Source: a virus
Reading direction: 5' to 3' (one strand)
Length of the DNA: 64,000 nt
IMG/VR virus record: IMGVR_UViG_3300030688_000001
Below are positions 1,169 through 9,400 of this stretch, in pieces (position 1 is the first letter of the stretch; each line of letters starts with the position of its first letter). The position numbers were made by a program, and so were the translations under genes. Under the pieces are notes generated by a model. The model was not told the DNA's origin. It was given only the letters and a program-made list of their open reading frames with translations, and ran no database searches.

Positions 1169-1307
1169 GGAGCCGTGGGCCGGATTTGAACCGACATCGG
1201 CCGAATTTACTTCGGTGCTCTTCTTATTGAGCTACTTTTTCAAAAGACATTAATTAGCTAGATTAACGCGCGCTCTAGCCAACAACGTACAGTTAATAAT
1301 TCACGGC
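1169..1307 (-). ncRNA. aberrant tRNA-like element (possible pseudo-tRNA)
   Basis: D arm TAGCTCAATAAGAAGAGC; anticodon arm CCGAA-GTAAA-TTCGG with only a 5-nt loop; T arm GTCGG-TTCAAAT-CCGGC; 3' CACGGC. The complementary GCCGTG lies about 70 nt upstream of the D arm. Confidence 0.5.
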
Positions 1308-1344: not shown

Positions 1345-1756
1345 TGGTGGACGTGGTTGGATTCTCACCAACGTGTTTACTTCAAAACAATATGATTTCT
1401 ACAAGCTTAGCCAGAATTTTAATACTAGAATAAGGAACTGACTCAACCTTAGCTATTCCAGTATTTTGTCCTTGTTAATTAGATTGTAATAGTACATAGA
1501 CTAAACTATCACAACTCACTTATAGATTACGGTTCGTTAGTCCCATAAGTTTCAGACCAGGAACCGGTATTGGTTAAACCAACACTTCATTGACGGAGGG
1601 AACGAACTCATCCGCTTGCGCAGAAATCGCCATCGCTTCATCAAGAATGCTCATTTTGTTAGCATTTAACGTTTGCATTCATTTTTAGGTAGCCGAGAAT
1701 GCTTCTACCGCTTGCTGTCATATCTTTCTAAAATAAGTCGATTATGTTACACGCCC
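1345..1756 (-). ncRNA. ssrA: tmRNA (one-piece)
   Basis: Acceptor GGGCGTG/CACGTCC-A-CCA with the G3.U70 alanine determinant. 5' ...AATCGAC motif. Pseudoknot 1 (GGTAG/CTACC and GCATTC/GAATGC). Resume codon GCT lies 11 nt after pk1. Tag frame 1663..1574. Confidence 0.93.
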
Positions 1757-1913
1757 ATAAAGCATATAAGAAAATGTTACACTACTAAATTATAATATGC
1801 TAGTATAATTTAGTTAAAGAAGGATTTGATTCTATTAAAGAACTTATCCTTTATTTTTGTTATTCTCCTGATAATTGAATCAGGTTTTCGACTAAGGGGG
1901 CTTTATTATTTAG

Positions 1914-2047
1914 TGCAGGAGGTAGGATTCGAACCTACAAGACGAATCTAATATCTTCAATGCTACGTTCGTCGACGGAGACCGGCTACTGATTGAAGTC
2001 AGGTAAGCCTACTATCCGTTGCGTCTGCCAATTCCACCACTACCTGC
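1914..2047 (-). ncRNA. non-canonical tRNA-like RNA (Leu-type body with extended anticodon and variable arms)
   Basis: Acceptor GCAGG(T)AG/CTCCTGC-A; Leu-type D loop GTGGAATTGGCAGAC; stem ACGGA/TCCGT enclosing 35 nt; variable stem GACGAA/TTCGTC; T arm GTAGG-TTCGAAT-CCTAC. Confidence 0.75.
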
Positions 2048-2051
2048 AAAA

Positions 2052-2555
2052 CTATTCCTTAGACTTAAACTTACGTAATTGATACTGAGAAACACTAGAA
2101 TAGACCTTACTGAGGTTGTTGTAAATTGCTTCAAATATATCACCGAACAAATTCCAAAACACACTCCAAGGCCAATAAGCAATCCAAGTTATAATCTTAG
2201 ACTTCCAATAAGACAAGGATAGCTCACTTTTTAAACTCATTAATTGAACTTCACTTAATTCATTGCCGTATGCTGTTTTAAATTTTTCTATTATTTTTGC
2301 AGAAAACTTGAACCACCGAAAAATGGACCAAAGCATTCCTATCACTAAATAACAGAAAGAATAAAGAATGACTGAACCCAAAGTTAAATGATGATGAATA
2401 GGTTCCCAACACATAAAAATCAAACTAGCCAGAACTATACTTCCAAATACTGGTTTATTGTGATCAATAGCGGCTGCCAATATCAGATTGGCAATTATGA
2501 GTAGCAACCAGAAAGCTAAGGTGCCAACTGCGAACAATGTGAATAAAGTATGCAT
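2052..2555 (-). CDS. multi-pass membrane protein
   Basis: Three to four hydrophobic helices; last gene of a tight operon. Confidence 0.7.
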   Translation of the reverse strand: MHTLFTLFAVGTLAFWLLLIIANLILAAAIDHNKPVFGSIVLASLIFMCWEPIHHHLTLGSVILYSFCYLVIGMLWSIFRWFKFSAKIIEKFKTAYGNELSEVQLMSLKSELSLSYWKSKIITWIAYWPWSVFWNLFGDIFEAIYNNLSKVYSSVSQYQLRKFKSKE

Positions 2556-4364: not shown

Positions 4365-5152
4365 GTGATTTTTTGTTTAGGTATTCTCACGATGTCATTG
4401 TTACTAGTTGAAGTAACTTCCGCATCCCAAATCTCAGCATCTTTTAAGGCTTTAGGGGTTGAGCTAACAATAGCTTTCTGTTTATCCGCCTCTTCCTCAG
4501 CTAGACTGATCTCCAAACTACTGAATGCCTGATTAAGACTAGTCTGCACGCTATCCAGAGCTGTAGTAGTCTTTATCTTGGCAAAAATATCATTATCATT
4601 GAATCCAGCTGCCTCATTAGCTTCTCTAGCAGCTTGAGCTAATTGCCATTCAGCATCGACTCTTTCAATAGTCTTGCCAAACTTCTGCAATTCATCCTTA
4701 GCCGCCATTAATTTCTGGGTCCTGGCTTTATAGATTTGATGGAGTTTCACACTCTCATCCCGATAAGCTGCTGCTCTATCAGGATAGTCTTTAATAAAAC
4801 CATCCAATTTACTGTCAAAATTCTTGCACTGGGCACCAATATTCTCTACTGCAACTTTAGCAGCATCCCACAATTTCTGCTTACGCTGCTGTTCCACTAA
4901 TAGAGTTTCTACTGGGTTTTTATTAGCTTCAGCCCTAATAGCCTTCAACCTCCAATTAGCAAATTTCATGCCGATATAAGGCCAGAAGTAGAGGGTGGAG
5001 TAACTGATACCGAAAGCAACTATCATACCCACCAATCCTTGGATAATGGTGAATATAAATGGAGCAACTATCAATGCGGTTAAGCAAAGTCCTCCAATTT
5101 TTACAATTGCTTGAATTCTTTCTTTACGTTGTTCTGGTGTTAATGTGTTCAT
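4361..5152 (-). CDS. PspA/IM30-like coiled-coil protein with N-terminal TM hairpin
   Basis: Two N-terminal hydrophobic helices, NPVETL motif, then long heptad coiled coils. The fold call is an inference. Confidence 0.55.
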   Translation of the reverse strand: MNTLTPEQRKERIQAIVKIGGLCLTALIVAPFIFTIIQGLVGMIVAFGISYSTLYFWPYIGMKFANWRLKAIRAEANKNPVETLLVEQQRKQKLWDAAKVAVENIGAQCKNFDSKLDGFIKDYPDRAAAYRDESVKLHQIYKARTQKLMAAKDELQKFGKTIERVDAEWQLAQAAREANEAAGFNDNDIFAKIKTTTALDSVQTSLNQAFSSLEISLAEEEADKQKAIVSSTPKALKDAEIWDAEVTSTSNNDIVRIPKQKIT

Positions 5153-5184
5153 TATTTGTTTTGTTTTGGCTGTTGTTCAAAGGA

Positions 5185-5216
5185 GGGAGTGGACCCTTAG
5201 CACGGTATCCACTCCC
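5185..5216 (-). terminator. GC-rich hairpin
   Basis: GGGAGTGGA-N14-TCCACTCCC. Confidence 0.5.
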
Positions 5217-5283
5217 CATAATTATATTTCAGATATAACGTCTAGGCTAATCAACTTATTAATCACAATGCAACAAATGTTTA

Positions 5284-5405
5284 ACTTAATCATAACGCTC
5301 TACCGCTAAGCTACCGGGCAATTCTGTGAAGTGGAATAAAATGGCTGCCCAGCTCGGATTTGAACCGAGGTCTTTACTTTAGTACATCTGTTATTGTAAT
5401 TAACT
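5284..5405 (-). ncRNA. circularly permuted tRNA mimic (YrlA/Y-RNA-like topology)
   Basis: Order 5'->3': stem strand, T arm CTCGG-TTCAAAT-CCGAG, CTGGGCA-G-CCA, 21-nt linker, TGCCCGG, D arm TAGCTTAGCGGTAGAGC, complementary stem strand. No anticodon loop. Confidence 0.75.
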
Positions 5406-5525
5406 ACCTAAACTAATTTTGAACTTAGGGTGAAAACTTGAGCTTCAACCTTATCTTTAACTTTAACTTGAGCTTGAGTTGCAGAGCATAGTATATCTAT
5501 GTCTCTGCTCACCCAAATTGTTTGA

Positions 5526-6269
5526 TCACTTACCAAGGATGTATTTGACTATGTCCTGGCCGATTTTCTCGCCCACAACATCAATATTGTTGGCGCGTGC
5601 TTGTGCTGACTTGATAGCGGCCACCAAGTCCTCACAACGAGACAAAAGATCACTTTTTTCAGCTGGTGTGAGCATGCCAGACCACTCCGTTTCATGCTTA
5701 TAACCTATTATCACATCCCTTACTTCTTTCGTAGCCTGGGCCGGATGTTGAGCTGTGGCAGGAACCAGTACGAAAGGATAGAACTCCTTGGTAGTCCTGG
5801 AAGTGACCCGAGGTTCAGCTTTATAAACATCTTCACCTTGATCATGGTCAGGCTTGAAGTTTTTGACTGGATCAAGAGTTGGGATCTTTTCGAGCAGACT
5901 TTTGAAGGTCTGAATATGCTTTTCAAGTTCCAGCAGACCAGTAGCCGGAATGTCCTTGAGTAGAACTGTACCATCCACAATTACATCTGCCTTAGCCAGA
6001 CAATTTGTGGAATTGATTCGATTACAGACATCCAGAACATTAGCAAAATCATTGCCGATCCAGCTCAGTTCTTTCCGTACTGTAGTTTGCCGCTTCACGT
6101 TCTTCTCCACCACATCCTGTTGATTTTCGCCCAAAGGTTTGAATATAACATGTTCTTCAACAAAGTGAAGGTGCTTCTTAGTGAAGAGTTCAGTCAAGTC
6201 ACTGATTAGCTTTGTGAGCTTACCAACGACACCTGACTTTACTGCCAGGATTTCATGTAGTTTAGCCAT
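5526..6269 (-). CDS. conserved hypothetical protein (MAKLHEILAV... family)
   Basis: 247-aa ORF with motifs ADVIVDG, PATGLLELEK, PTLDP and ATAQHPAQ, resembling a family I recall from bacteria and phages; function unknown. Confidence 0.8.
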   Translation of the reverse strand: MAKLHEILAVKSGVVGKLTKLISDLTELFTKKHLHFVEEHVIFKPLGENQQDVVEKNVKRQTTVRKELSWIGNDFANVLDVCNRINSTNCLAKADVIVDGTVLLKDIPATGLLELEKHIQTFKSLLEKIPTLDPVKNFKPDHDQGEDVYKAEPRVTSRTTKEFYPFVLVPATAQHPAQATKEVRDVIIGYKHETEWSGMLTPAEKSDLLSRCEDLVAAIKSAQARANNIDVVGEKIGQDIVKYILGK

Positions 6270-8035: not shown

Positions 8036-9400
8036 TCAGTTTAGTCCTCTTTGTAGTTGATGTTGCTTAAATAAACCTGTATTCGCCTTAATTAAGTCAG
8101 CTGCCTCAAATGGTGAAATGGCCTGACTCGCACCAGCTTGTCTAAGGAATGCTCTAGTAATTTCCTTCTCACTACTTAATTCTGGAGCAATTCTAAGCAT
8201 TTGTTGGTAAGCATCTACTACATGATGAGTAGGAAACTTACTTATAATAGGATCAGTAGCTACAAGTTCTTGTAGTAATAATGCTCTATCCCTGTTCGCT
8301 TCAGGAGTATTAGTACTGGCACTCAATTCTGGTTTACCTTGTTTATCCTTATAACCTGAAAAGCTTTTAGTTATATTCATGAGGTCAATTGCAGACTTAA
8401 TTCTACTATCAAACTCCTCCTCTACCGCAGCTTTCTTTTCAGCAATACAAGTCATAACCGGATCTTCAGGGTCAGCCTTGGCAATCTTACTTCTTTCTGC
8501 CTTGATAGATGCATCGACCTGGGCTAACAAAGAATCAGTATCTGCTATCTTTTCTATATCTTGTTTAAACAATCCTTTAAAATAACTCTGTTCAAAATTA
8601 AGGTTATAGGCTGCATCTTCTGACTTTACGGTAGCTTCTTTAAGATATGTTACACTATTAATAAACTTATCATATAGTTCAGTTTCATTACATAGTGCAG
8701 CTAATTTAATGTTGGAATCATGAACACCTCTTTCTTCTTTTAGATTAGAGGTTTTATATAACAAATCCAAATATCCATTACTAGCATTACCATACTTACT
8801 AAATACGCTAGTTTCAAATTCATGCCAGGCAGATCTACAATCATTACTCTCAGCGAATTTTCTAAGTATATTGCAGAAGTTTTTATTTACTTCAAATTCA
8901 GCATCTAATCTATCTGCTTCAGCATCATAGGCTTGTTTTTGTAATTTACTAATATATTTTACACTCTTATCATAAGCACCAGATTTACTTAATTCATTTT
9001 TACCTACATCTTCAGTAAGTATTAGTTTAGCATAAGCTTCTTTATAAGGTCCTGGCTCCAAATATCTTGCAAATTTAGGAGCAGTTTCTTGGATTTGAAA
9101 AGAAGAGAATAGTTCTGATTCCAATTCTGAGGCAGTCTTTTCTTTTCCGCTATATATATCTTCAGCAACTTTGGCTGCATCAACTATGGGAAAATCATCA
9201 GCTTTTGAGTCTGGATGCTTCTTAAAGTGATCATAGTGCAAAGCTACATTAATAGCTTCACAACTACGCTTAATAAAGTTATGATTAAGTTCCAGTGATT
9301 TAGCAACCTTAGTAGCTGCTTCTTGAGGTGGAGTACCAGTATTTATCTCAGTAACTATCTCATGGACTGCAAATTTTACCAATTCTTCAGGTGTGCGCAT
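8036..9400 (-). CDS. putative virion (head-internal) protein with multiple K-x-A motifs
   Basis: 454 aa, helical; contains KFA, KQA, KLA, KIA and KKA motifs. Confidence 0.6.
   Translation of the reverse strand: MRTPEELVKFAVHEIVTEINTGTPPQEAATKVAKSLELNHNFIKRSCEAINVALHYDHFKKHPDSKADDFPIVDAAKVAEDIYSGKEKTASELESELFSSFQIQETAPKFARYLEPGPYKEAYAKLILTEDVGKNELSKSGAYDKSVKYISKLQKQAYDAEADRLDAEFEVNKNFCNILRKFAESNDCRSAWHEFETSVFSKYGNASNGYLDLLYKTSNLKEERGVHDSNIKLAALCNETELYDKFINSVTYLKEATVKSEDAAYNLNFEQSYFKGLFKQDIEKIADTDSLLAQVDASIKAERSKIAKADPEDPVMTCIAEKKAAVEEEFDSRIKSAIDLMNITKSFSGYKDKQGKPELSASTNTPEANRDRALLLQELVATDPIISKFPTHHVVDAYQQMLRIAPELSSEKEITRAFLRQAGASQAISPFEAADLIKANTGLFKQHQLQRGLN

What the first reader, a model, noticed from the sequence alone, without database searches (positions are those of the whole stretch)
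1914..2047. tRNA-shaped RNA whose anticodon and variable arms are extended and end in complementary loops
Seen: acceptor (one bulged T), Leu-type D arm and T arm are intact. The anticodon loop is replaced by a second 9-bp bulged helix capped by CTTCAA, and the long variable arm carries TTGAAG, its exact 6-nt complement, allowing an intramolecular kissing loop. The cap reads CU-UCA-A, like a Sec/opal anticodon, but the geometry is not that of a decoding tRNA. Established: A73 with this D loop and a long variable arm are LeuRS identity features. Inference: a chargeable but non-decoding tRNA mimic, for example a decoy for anticodon nucleases, a synthetase sponge or an aminoacyl donor.
Basis: partly seen in the sequence, partly recalled or inferred. 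Interest (0 to 1): 0.8.

Follow-up and report, generated by a model that had tools for sequence, protein, structure and literature searches.

The report
Anticodon-less leucine-tRNA look-alike in phage
A peat-soil jumbo phage carries a 134-base gene that keeps the parts of a leucine tRNA needed for folding, trimming and probably charging. It has two overgrown arms where a working anticodon should be, so it joins a widespread class of non-decoding phage tRNA look-alikes that I did not find described in print and whose job is unknown.

Summary
On the minus strand, 2047..1914 folds as a class II (Leu-type) cloverleaf with 34 standard pairs. It keeps U8, A14, A15, G18G19, A20a, the T loop and A73. 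One U is bulged in the acceptor stem.

The anticodon stem encloses a 35-nt hairpin capped by CUUCAA. The variable arm holds a 21-nt loop containing UUGAAG. This loop match is unlikely by chance but not decisive (P about 0.013).

ARAGORN and Rfam do not call it a tRNA. No single excision restores an anticodon arm better than chance. One metatranscriptome contig covers it unspliced and ends at its predicted 3' end.

It is not unique in kind. One narrow pattern finds more than 111 long Leu-type shells in IMG/VR, with covarying acceptor stems, mostly A73 and unrelated structured inserts. This scan has reported that class on other DNA at least ten times. I found no publication on it.

This copy's insert is an orphan: only identical copies in near-identical strains, and none in relatives at 57% protein identity. 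Covariation therefore cannot be tested here.

Best reading: a non-decoding, probably chargeable tRNA-Leu shell. Its function is unknown, and a decaying pseudogene remains a real rival.

The parts
1914..2047 (-). Whole 134-nt tRNA-Leu-like gene (5' end at 2047, discriminator A73 at 1914)
   Evidence: Sequence. Cloverleaf with 34 standard pairs. The model R1 built from it matches T4 tRNA-Leu in register.
2040..2047 (-). Acceptor 5' strand GCAGG-U-AG, with U6 (2042) bulged
   Evidence: Pairs with 1915..1921. The bulge is present in four independent assemblies.
2021..2037 (-). Leu-type D arm: GUG, loop GAAUUGGCAGA, CGC
   Evidence: It carries A14, A15, G18G19 and A20a, which are LeuRS identity elements (PMC9976931).
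1975..2019 (-). Extended anticodon arm: 5-bp stem ACGGA/UCCGU enclosing a 35-nt bulged hairpin
   Evidence: The minimum-free-energy fold of this piece alone gives the same structure, z -2.24.
1993..1998 (-). Hexaloop CUUCAA capping the extended anticodon arm
   Evidence: It is complementary to 1955..1960.
1941..1973 (-). Enlarged variable arm: 6-bp stem GACGAA/UUCGUC with a 21-nt loop
   Evidence: It aligns with the variable stem of T4 tRNA-Leu.
1955..1960 (-). UUGAAG in the variable-arm loop, the exact complement of the cap loop. It sits in a Phe-anticodon-like heptamer UUGAAGA.
   Evidence: P 0.013. ARAGORN reads it as anticodon GAA once the first arm is deleted.
1922..1938 (-). T arm GUAGG-UUCGAAU-CCUAC
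   Evidence: Rfam tRNA model positions 46-63.
1914..1921 (-). Acceptor 3' strand CUCCUGC plus A73. The next base, 1913, is C, followed by UAA. No CCA is encoded.
   Evidence: An RNA-library contig ends at 1913.
2052..2555 (-). Upstream 167-aa ORF. Its stop codon lies 4 nt before the element, and the two are co-transcribed.
   Evidence: ORF list. RNA contig 1913..2237 bridges ORF and element. The ORF is unique to this phage species.
2097..2125 (-). Weak sigma-70-like promoter match about 50 nt upstream of the element
   Evidence: 9 of 12 consensus positions. Such matches are no more frequent here than in shuffles.

Best explanation
The gene makes a non-decoding RNA derived from a class II leucine tRNA.

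Shown or inferred steps:
1. It is transcribed with the upstream ORF (shown by one RNA contig).
2. It is cut out like a tRNA, by RNase P at the 5' end and by 3' trimming plus CCA addition after A73-C74 (inferred from tRNA features; the contig end at 1913 fits).
3. It folds into a normal tRNA elbow and acceptor/T minihelix (inferred from intact tertiary-contact nucleotides).
4. Where the anticodon loop and the small variable loop should be, it carries two long arms. Their end loops can pair with each other over 6-7 bases and may lock the lower half into a compact shape (inferred).
5. LeuRS needs only A73 and the elbow, not the anticodon or variable arm, so the RNA is probably leucylatable (inferred from published identity rules).
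6. It cannot read a codon.

The tRNA shell most likely serves as a handle for processing, stability and docking. The arms are a payload. The target is unknown.

It is one member of a large phage class of Leu-type shells with unrelated structured inserts.
For: Structure: 34 of 34 standard pairs, including both enlarged arms. The model R1 aligns all five stems in register with T4 tRNA-Leu, 46 bits, and with other phage tRNA-Leu.

LeuRS elements present: U8, A14, A15, G18G19, A20a, U54-U55-C56, A58, U48, C2-G71 and A73 (rules from PMC9976931).

Non-decoding:
- ARAGORN and Rfam give no tRNA call.
- The only intron reading is Asn(AUU) with a 59-nt intron. A reading of that kind arises in 23% of shuffles.
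- Of 864 single deletions, 15 give an ARAGORN tRNA call, and none of these is Leu.
- The split-stem test recovers an anticodon arm in 30 of 48 class I long tRNAs. It finds none here.

Class:
- More than 111 IMG/VR stretches have a Leu D arm and a T loop 68-98 nt apart.
- 66 of 80 have 7 of 7 acceptor pairs built from many different sequences, mostly A73 and no CCA.
- With the intron option, ARAGORN assigns 33 different anticodons across the class, which marks these as forced fits.
- Several loci also hold a normal tRNA-Leu or further long copies.
- Between related members, insert helices show 6 compensatory, 13 one-sided and 0 disruptive changes.

RNA:
- Contig 1913..2237 in an RNA library is unspliced and ends at A73+1.
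- The spacer 1784..1912 is uncovered in all six RNA runs.
- The neighbouring tmRNA is covered at 48-1069x.
Against: - No diverged homologue of this insert exists in what I could search, so there is no covariation for this copy. The only other copies are 100% identical, in strains about 99% identical overall, where 0 changes in 134 nt is expected 28% of the time.
- Relatives at about 57% protein identity lack it.
- The bulged U6 in the acceptor stem is absent from the other class members and could impair RNase P or LeuRS.
- RNA evidence is one contig at depth about 3 in one of six runs. Standard libraries under-sample tRNA-sized RNA, so this is weak either way.
- Fold energies are only modestly better than shuffles.
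- No conserved partner protein lies near class members.
- No antisense target longer than 11 nt exists in the window. The payload's role is a guess.
Confidence: 0.6

Rival explanations
1. Decaying relic. A phage tRNA-Leu gene suffered two loop expansions and an acceptor-stem insertion, no longer works, and simply has not been deleted yet.
For: - The insert is an orphan, restricted to one phage species.
- It is absent from relatives that keep the neighbouring genes.
- The bulged U6 is seen in no other class member.
- RNA signal is low compared with the tmRNA 160 nt away.
- Folding z-scores are modest.
Against: - All 34 pairs are standard, including 14 in the two added segments, and every tertiary-contact nucleotide is intact.
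- The two added loops are complementary (P 0.013).
- More than 100 shells of the same kind exist elsewhere, with covarying acceptor stems and compensatory changes in their inserts. The architecture is therefore selected for in other phages.
Confidence: 0.2
2. Cis-acting processing or stability element. The tRNA shape serves only to recruit RNase P and 3' trimming. That would define and protect the 3' end of the upstream mRNA, as 't-elements' do in plant mitochondria and mascRNA does on MALAT1. The released RNA would have no role of its own.
For: - The element starts 4 nt after the stop codon of the 167-aa ORF, and one RNA contig spans both.
- Most class members are solitary, not in tRNA clusters (20 of 80 have a tRNA within 1 kb).
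Against: - RNase P needs only the acceptor/T minihelix. That would not explain retention of the full Leu D loop, A73, the Levitt pair and two well-paired extra arms.
- It would also not explain compensatory changes in the inserts of class members.
Confidence: 0.1
3. Interrupted tRNA. One or both inserts are removed after transcription to give an ordinary decoding tRNA, as proposed for the 'enigmatic introns' of Lak megaphage tRNAs.
For: - ARAGORN with introns allowed returns tRNA-Asn(AUU) with a 59-nt intron.
- Interrupted tRNAs do exist in phages. 30 of 48 long class I tRNA genes regain a perfect anticodon arm when a 44-64-nt insert at position 28/29 is removed.
- About 5 Leu-type members are interrupted tRNA-Leu(UAA/CAA).
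- Lak phage precedent: PMC6784885.
Against: - The Asn(AUU) reading arises in 23% of shuffles. It needs a class I body with a class II D arm and an unmodified A34.
- No excision point gives a Leu anticodon.
- Two separate excisions would be needed.
- The inserts are far too short for a group I intron, and Rfam has no match.
- The only RNA contig is unspliced and shows no joints.
Confidence: 0.05
4. Decoding suppressor or selenocysteine-type tRNA that uses the CU-UCA-A cap as its anticodon loop.
For: The cap contains UCA preceded by U. UGA-reading tRNAs have CUUCAAA loops.
Against: - The loop has 6 nt, not 7. It sits on an arm of about 13 bp with two internal loops, so the anticodon-to-CCA distance is wrong.
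- The D arm is Leu-type, not the 6-bp Sec type.
- Rfam tRNA-Sec gives no match.
- ORFs in the window read through cleanly under table 11.
Confidence: 0.02

Closest known systems
Class II tRNA-Leu of bacteria and phages (Rfam RF00005), e.g. phage T4 tRNA-Leu
   Same: Acceptor stem, 3-bp D stem with loop GAAUUGG-AGA, 5-bp anticodon stem, variable stem, T arm and A73 all align in register. It has all the E. coli LeuRS identity elements.
   Different: A 35-nt hairpin replaces the 7-nt anticodon loop. The variable loop is 21 nt instead of 3-5. There is an extra U in the acceptor 5' strand. It falls below Rfam and ARAGORN thresholds. It cannot decode.
Anticodon-less tRNA-Leu-like phage RNAs
   Same: Leu D arm, canonical T loop, paired acceptor stem, A73 then C with no encoded CCA, a middle of 68-98 nt or more without an anticodon loop, and phage-borne.
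   Different: - Its insert is unrelated to any other member.
- It is one of only 14 of 76 that keep helices at both the anticodon-stem and variable-stem positions.
- It has a bulged U6.
- Its acceptor and T arm match a phage tRNA-Met rather than the common AGUCAGG lineage.
Phage T4 stable RNA C (species 1 RNA, rnaC) and RNA D
   Same: About 120-140 nt, encoded beside tRNA genes. It has a terminal helix plus a canonical T arm with two long hairpin arms between them. It is expressed and its function is still unknown (PMC9697503).
   Different: There is no sequence or model similarity: R1 does not match rnaC. rnaC has no D arm and has U-U mismatches in its terminal helix. Nothing suggests Leu identity.
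tmRNA (SsrA)
   Same: A tRNA-like acceptor/T domain whose aminoacylation does not depend on an anticodon, with a large insert in place of the anticodon arm. A phage tmRNA lies 160 nt downstream.
   Different: No G3-U70 alanine identity, no reading frame or resume codon, no pseudoknots, and no Rfam tmRNA match over the element.
Lak megaphage tRNAs with 'enigmatic introns' (Devoto et al. 2019, PMC6784885)
   Same: Over-long phage tRNA genes that standard bacterial settings do not classify.
   Different: Those are read as ordinary tRNAs once an insert is removed. Here no removal restores an anticodon arm better than chance.
Engineered 'tRNA scaffold' for expressing recombinant RNA in E. coli (e.g. 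PMC3753655)
   Same: The design principle: a tRNA shell gives processing and nuclease resistance to a foreign structured insert that replaces the anticodon arm (paper listed; mechanism from my own knowledge).
   Different: That one is man-made. It uses Lys/Met shells, and charging is irrelevant to it.

Membership tests
Canonical decoding tRNA-Leu (RF00005, class II) | 7-nt anticodon loop with U33 and a Leu anticodon on a 5-bp stem | tested here: not met
   The loop enclosed by ACGGA/UCCGU is 35 nt. No Leu anticodon loop is recoverable by any single excision.
Canonical decoding tRNA-Leu (RF00005, class II) | Scores above the Rfam gathering threshold, or is called by ARAGORN | tested here: not met
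   14.4 bits against a cut-off of 29, T arm only. ARAGORN default finds nothing.
Canonical decoding tRNA-Leu (RF00005, class II) | Leu-type D arm, T arm, variable stem and A73 in register | tested here: met
   R1 aligns to T4 tRNA-Leu at 46 bits with all stems matched. Nucleotides checked.
Canonical decoding tRNA-Leu (RF00005, class II) | Regular 7-bp acceptor stem | tested here: not met
   8 nt on the 5' strand against 7 on the 3' strand, with U6 bulged.
Anticodon-less tRNA-Leu-like phage RNA class | Leu D loop GGAAUUGGYAGA and T loop GGUUCRARUCC separated by about 70 nt or more | tested here: met
   The window element matches the pattern that retrieves the class, with an 85-nt gap.
Anticodon-less tRNA-Leu-like phage RNA class | Paired acceptor stem, A73, no encoded CCA | tested here: met
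   7 pairs plus a bulge, then A73-C-U-A-A, like the ACUA/ACAA ends of most members.
Anticodon-less tRNA-Leu-like phage RNA class | No recoverable anticodon arm | tested here: met
   Split-stem scan negative for the window and for about 62 of 76 class members.
Anticodon-less tRNA-Leu-like phage RNA class | Made as a discrete, processed, possibly leucylated RNA | tested here: inconclusive
   One unspliced RNA-library contig ends at A73+1. Contigs cannot show 5' processing, CCA addition or charging.
tRNA-Sec (RF01852) | 8/5 acceptor/T geometry, 6-bp D stem, UCA in a 7-nt loop | tested here: not met
   The D stem has 3 bp and the cap loop has 6 nt. Rfam gives no match at E up to 10.
tmRNA (RF00023) | Ala identity (G3-U70), tag reading frame, pseudoknots | tested here: not met
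   A3-U70 instead of G3-U70. There is no frame. The tmRNA model matches only the neighbouring gene at 1345..1756.
YrlA / bacterial Y RNA | Permuted layout with the RNA ends in the helix that replaces the anticodon arm | tested here: not met
   The ends lie in the acceptor stem, as in a normal tRNA. No Rfam match.
Group I intron-bearing tRNA | Catalytic core of about 200 nt or more in the anticodon loop | tested here: not met
   The inserts are 28 and about 17 nt longer than normal loops. No intron family matches at E up to 10.
T4 RNA C-type stable RNA | Sequence or model homology to rnaC | tested here: not met
   R1 matches only tRNA-Leu in the T4 tRNA region, not rnaC. The resemblance is architectural only.

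The most novel reading that the evidence does not exclude
Phages widely use leucine-tRNA shells as chargeable, non-decoding carriers. The host matures and leucylates them because LeuRS ignores the anticodon, and each carries its own structured payload. In this jumbo phage the payload is a self-locking pair of arms: a UUC-containing cap kissing a GAA anticodon-like loop. The whole RNA would act as a decoy or sponge for a host factor that handles tRNA ends or elbows. Candidates are a defence enzyme that modifies or cuts acceptor ends, LeuRS itself, or the Leu/Phe-tRNA protein transferase.
Probability: 0.15. Interest if true: 0.8.

Novelty: new variant of a known kind. Interest (0 to 1): 0.55.

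Why it matters
Non-decoding tRNA look-alikes such as tmRNA, YrlA and T4 RNAs C and D are few, and most are unexplained. More than a hundred uncultivated phages keep a leucine-tRNA shell with unrelated structured inserts, and this jumbo phage adds one next to its own tmRNA. That pattern suggests a general, undescribed way for phages to make stable small RNAs, or to interfere with host tRNA handling.

Leucine identity is one of the few that survive loss of the anticodon, so charging is directly testable.

For annotation, these genes are invisible to ARAGORN and Rfam. When introns are allowed they are mis-read as intron-bearing tRNAs with arbitrary anticodons.

This single copy adds little new evidence about function. 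It is an orphan and shows no covariation.

Tried and rejected
1. Homologues of this copy.
- Exact and degenerate DNA patterns in IMG/VR gave none for this insert.
- blastn against 50,697 phage records gave none.
- The metagenome scan through the neighbouring 358-aa protein gave 12 loci, of which only the near-identical strain has the element.
- The upstream 167-aa ORF has one protein cluster in 5.8 billion sequences, from the same species.
- The bacterial-genome scan gave 8 hits, all with unrelated inserts or artefacts.
- The related 214-kb phage G001 has 20 normal tRNAs and a tmRNA, but not this element.

2. Intron readings. ARAGORN -i, an 864-variant single-deletion scan and a split-stem scan at three offsets all stayed at chance level.

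3. Kissing loops as a class-wide rule. Rejected: 3 of 45 members against 0.21 expected, and 2 against about 0.2 without this copy.

4. A partner protein encoded nearby. No family is shared by more than 5 of 80 loci.

5. An antisense target in the window. Only four 11-mers, which is chance level.

6. The idea that only Leu shells are extended. Rejected: class I D-arm shells with long middles are as easy to find, but most of those are interrupted real tRNAs.

7. Earlier lead that Bacillus phage phi3T carries a member. R1 found nothing in the first 50 kb. I did not search the rest.

8. blastn of another class member against cultured phages gave no match.

9. A shared ACUUCAAU 8-mer between this cap and the 3' end of class I tRNA inserts. 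I noted it but could not tell it from chance.

Full report
**What is there**

The finding lies on the minus strand: 5' end at window 2047, discriminator at 1914. I wrote the cloverleaf by hand and checked every pair. There are 34 pairs and all are standard.
- Acceptor stem: 7 bp, with one extra U (U6, window 2042) on the 5' strand.
- D arm: the class II leucine type, 3-bp stem with loop GAAUUGGCAGA.
- Anticodon stem: ACGGA/UCCGU. It encloses 35 nt that form a 4+4-bp bulged hairpin capped by CUUCAA.
- Variable stem: GACGAA/UUCGUC, enclosing 21 nt that contain UUGAAG.
- T arm: canonical.
- After A73 come C, U, A, A, so no CCA is encoded.

ARAGORN with default settings sees nothing. Rfam matches only the T arm, at 14.4 bits against a cut-off of 29, and no other family matches at E up to 10. 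A covariance model built from the element (R1) aligns to phage T4 tRNA-Leu at 46 bits with all five stems in register. The only differences are the two loops, 34 against 6 and 25 against 4 unaligned bases. It aligns the same way to other phage tRNA-Leu genes.

**Is it more than chance?**

Fold energies are only modestly better than shuffles: z -1.4 for the whole element, -2.2 and -1.75 for the arms. A 6-nt or longer complement between the cap loop and the variable-arm loop appears in 1.3% of within-loop shuffles. That is suggestive, but it was noticed after the fact.

**Context**

The window is part of a peat-soil jumbo phage with a split multisubunit RNA polymerase.

Gene order on the minus strand:
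1. A 167-aa ORF whose stop codon lies 4 nt before the element.
2. The element.
3. A 157-nt spacer with a good promoter match.
4. A phage tmRNA (1756..1345).
5. A second aberrant tRNA-like stretch (1286..1171).
6. tRNA-Cys.

**RNA evidence**

Six peat metatranscriptomes hold parts of the region.
- The tmRNA is covered at 48-1069x.
- The spacer 1784..1912 is covered in none of the runs.
- In one run a 325-nt contig at depth about 3 covers 1913..2237. It runs from inside the ORF through the whole element, is unspliced, and ends one base after A73.
- A second contig in the same run ends 3 nt after the CCA of tRNA-Cys.

These are assembled contigs. They show presence and an end, not abundance, 5' processing or CCA addition. 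No joints were seen.

**Relatives of this copy**

I found none that differ. Three other assemblies of a strain about 99% identical carry an identical element. With 31 mismatches in 3307 nt of flank, zero changes in 134 nt is expected 28% of the time. That strain also has a 1.67-kb insertion 20 nt downstream of the element.

Phages whose neighbouring proteins are 51-58% identical lack the whole RNA cluster at this place. One of them is a 214-kb IMG/VR contig with 20 tRNAs and a tmRNA elsewhere. Insert-specific and shell-specific patterns found nothing related in IMG/VR.

**It belongs to a class**

This distance excludes normal tRNA-Leu and tandem tRNAs.

Of the 80 loci returned:
- 66 have 7 of 7 acceptor pairs, built from many different sequences. 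Most have A73 followed by C and no CCA. Their middles are unrelated to one another.
- ARAGORN of 76. With introns allowed it assigns 33 different anticodons, which marks these as forced fits.
- R1 finds normal tRNA-Leu genes and further long copies in some of the same loci.
- Only 20 of 80 have a tRNA within 1 kb, and no protein family is shared by more than 5 loci.

Between related members, substitutions in predicted insert helices are 6 compensatory, 13 one-sided and 0 disruptive. The caveat is that the structure was predicted from the same pairs.

Bacterial genomes give only about four comparable elements among 185,579 species representatives.

This scan has reported the same class on other DNA at least ten times. 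My tests agree with those notes. I found no paper that describes it.

**Control, and the intron question**

A class I D arm followed by the same long gap is just as easy to find. There, however, 30 of 48 distinct elements regain a perfect anticodon arm, of many isotypes and each followed by a 5-nt variable loop, once a 44-64-nt insert is removed. In most of them the insert sits between positions 28 and 29. Shuffles give 4.75. Those are real interrupted tRNAs with recurring insert motifs.

The same test on the Leu set gives 14 of 76 against 6.5 expected. About five of these are credible, all tRNA-Leu(UAA/CAA). It gives nothing for the window element. The only intron reading of the window element is Asn(AUU) with a 59-nt intron, and a reading of that kind appears in 23% of shuffles. 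Of 864 single deletions, 15 give an ARAGORN tRNA call, and none of these is Leu.

I therefore reject the 'insert is spliced out' refutation at the level these data allow.

**Chargeability**

According to the identity review PMC9976931, E. coli LeuRS needs A73, the A15-U48 pair, G18G19, A20a and the D/T-loop contacts. [quoted passage not shown] The element has all the required nucleotides, plus C2-G71, which acts against SerRS.

The effect of the bulged U6 is unknown.

**Mechanism and odds**
- Most likely (0.6): a processed, non-decoding, probably leucylatable tRNA-Leu shell carrying two arms that may lock by loop-loop pairing. The shell gives processing, stability and docking. The payload's target is unknown.
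- Rival (0.2): a decaying relic.
- Rival (0.1): a purely cis-acting mRNA-end processing signal.
- Rival (0.05): an interrupted tRNA.
- Rival (0.02): a UGA-reading tRNA.

**Closest known**

The closest published analogue in architecture is T4 RNA C, at 139 nt. It has a terminal helix, two long arms and a T arm, lies beside the T4 tRNA genes, and its function is still unknown. There is no homology.

**Verdict**

This is a new, orphan member of a widespread class that I did not find described in print and that this scan has already met. It is interesting as a class and modest as a single case.

Noticed in passing
window 1171-1286 (minus strand): A second aberrant tRNA-like stretch lies between the tmRNA and tRNA-Cys. 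It has a canonical T arm, and a D arm and body that score 28.9 bits on Rfam tRNA (cut-off 29) over 1178..1235. Its anticodon-like loop has only 5 nt. About 44 nt sit between a weakly pairing 5' acceptor strand and the D arm. R1 matches it at E 0.086.
   Followed up: partly
loci L155-L233 (IMG/VR), e.g. L171, L159, L166, L168: Many phage class I tRNA genes of different isotypes are interrupted by a 44-64-nt insert, in most cases between positions 28 and 29 in the 5' strand of the anticodon stem. Removing it restores a perfect anticodon arm in 30 of 48 (shuffles give 4.75). The inserts share motifs ACAGCAA (18 of 48) and GAGUUACUUC (11 of 48). This looks like a distinct intron-like or mobile element.
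   Followed up: partly
L016 8334-10001, corresponding to window 1867-1894: A strain about 99% identical has a 1.67-kb insertion 20 nt downstream of the element's 3' end. It holds three small ORFs, including a CxxC-repeat paralogue, plus a 282-nt exact copy of window 8042..8323.
   Followed up: partly
window 1345-1756 (minus strand): The phage tmRNA is very abundant in six peat metatranscriptomes (48-1069x). In most runs the contigs end at 1746/1747 (1727 in one), some directly against adapter sequence. That is 9-10 nt inside the 5' end predicted by Rfam (1756).
   Followed up: no
window 5101-5700: This region has the second-highest RNA depth in the first 9 kb (up to 185x in three runs).
   Followed up: no
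L152 8617-8692; L151 5178-5301; L153 2006-2129: The element's acceptor stem and T arm are identical, apart from the extra U6, to a phage tRNA-Met(CAU) that sits 5 nt after a tRNA-Leu(UAA). Two other phages have a 124-nt Met-type long shell directly upstream of a normal tRNA-Met. The window element may therefore be a mosaic of tRNA genes.
   Followed up: partly
window 1954-1960 and 1993-1998 (minus strand): The variable-arm loop reads UUGAAGA, a Phe-type anticodon loop with anticodon GAA. The cap it can pair with contains the Phe codon UUC. The proposed kissing pair therefore mimics a codon-anticodon pair. ARAGORN calls tRNA-Phe(GAA) if the first arm is deleted.
   Followed up: partly
L139 2909-3047 (phage T4 rnaC): T4 species 1 RNA folds strongly (z -4.6) into a terminal helix, two long hairpin arms and a canonical T arm. 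No Rfam family covers it.
   Followed up: partly
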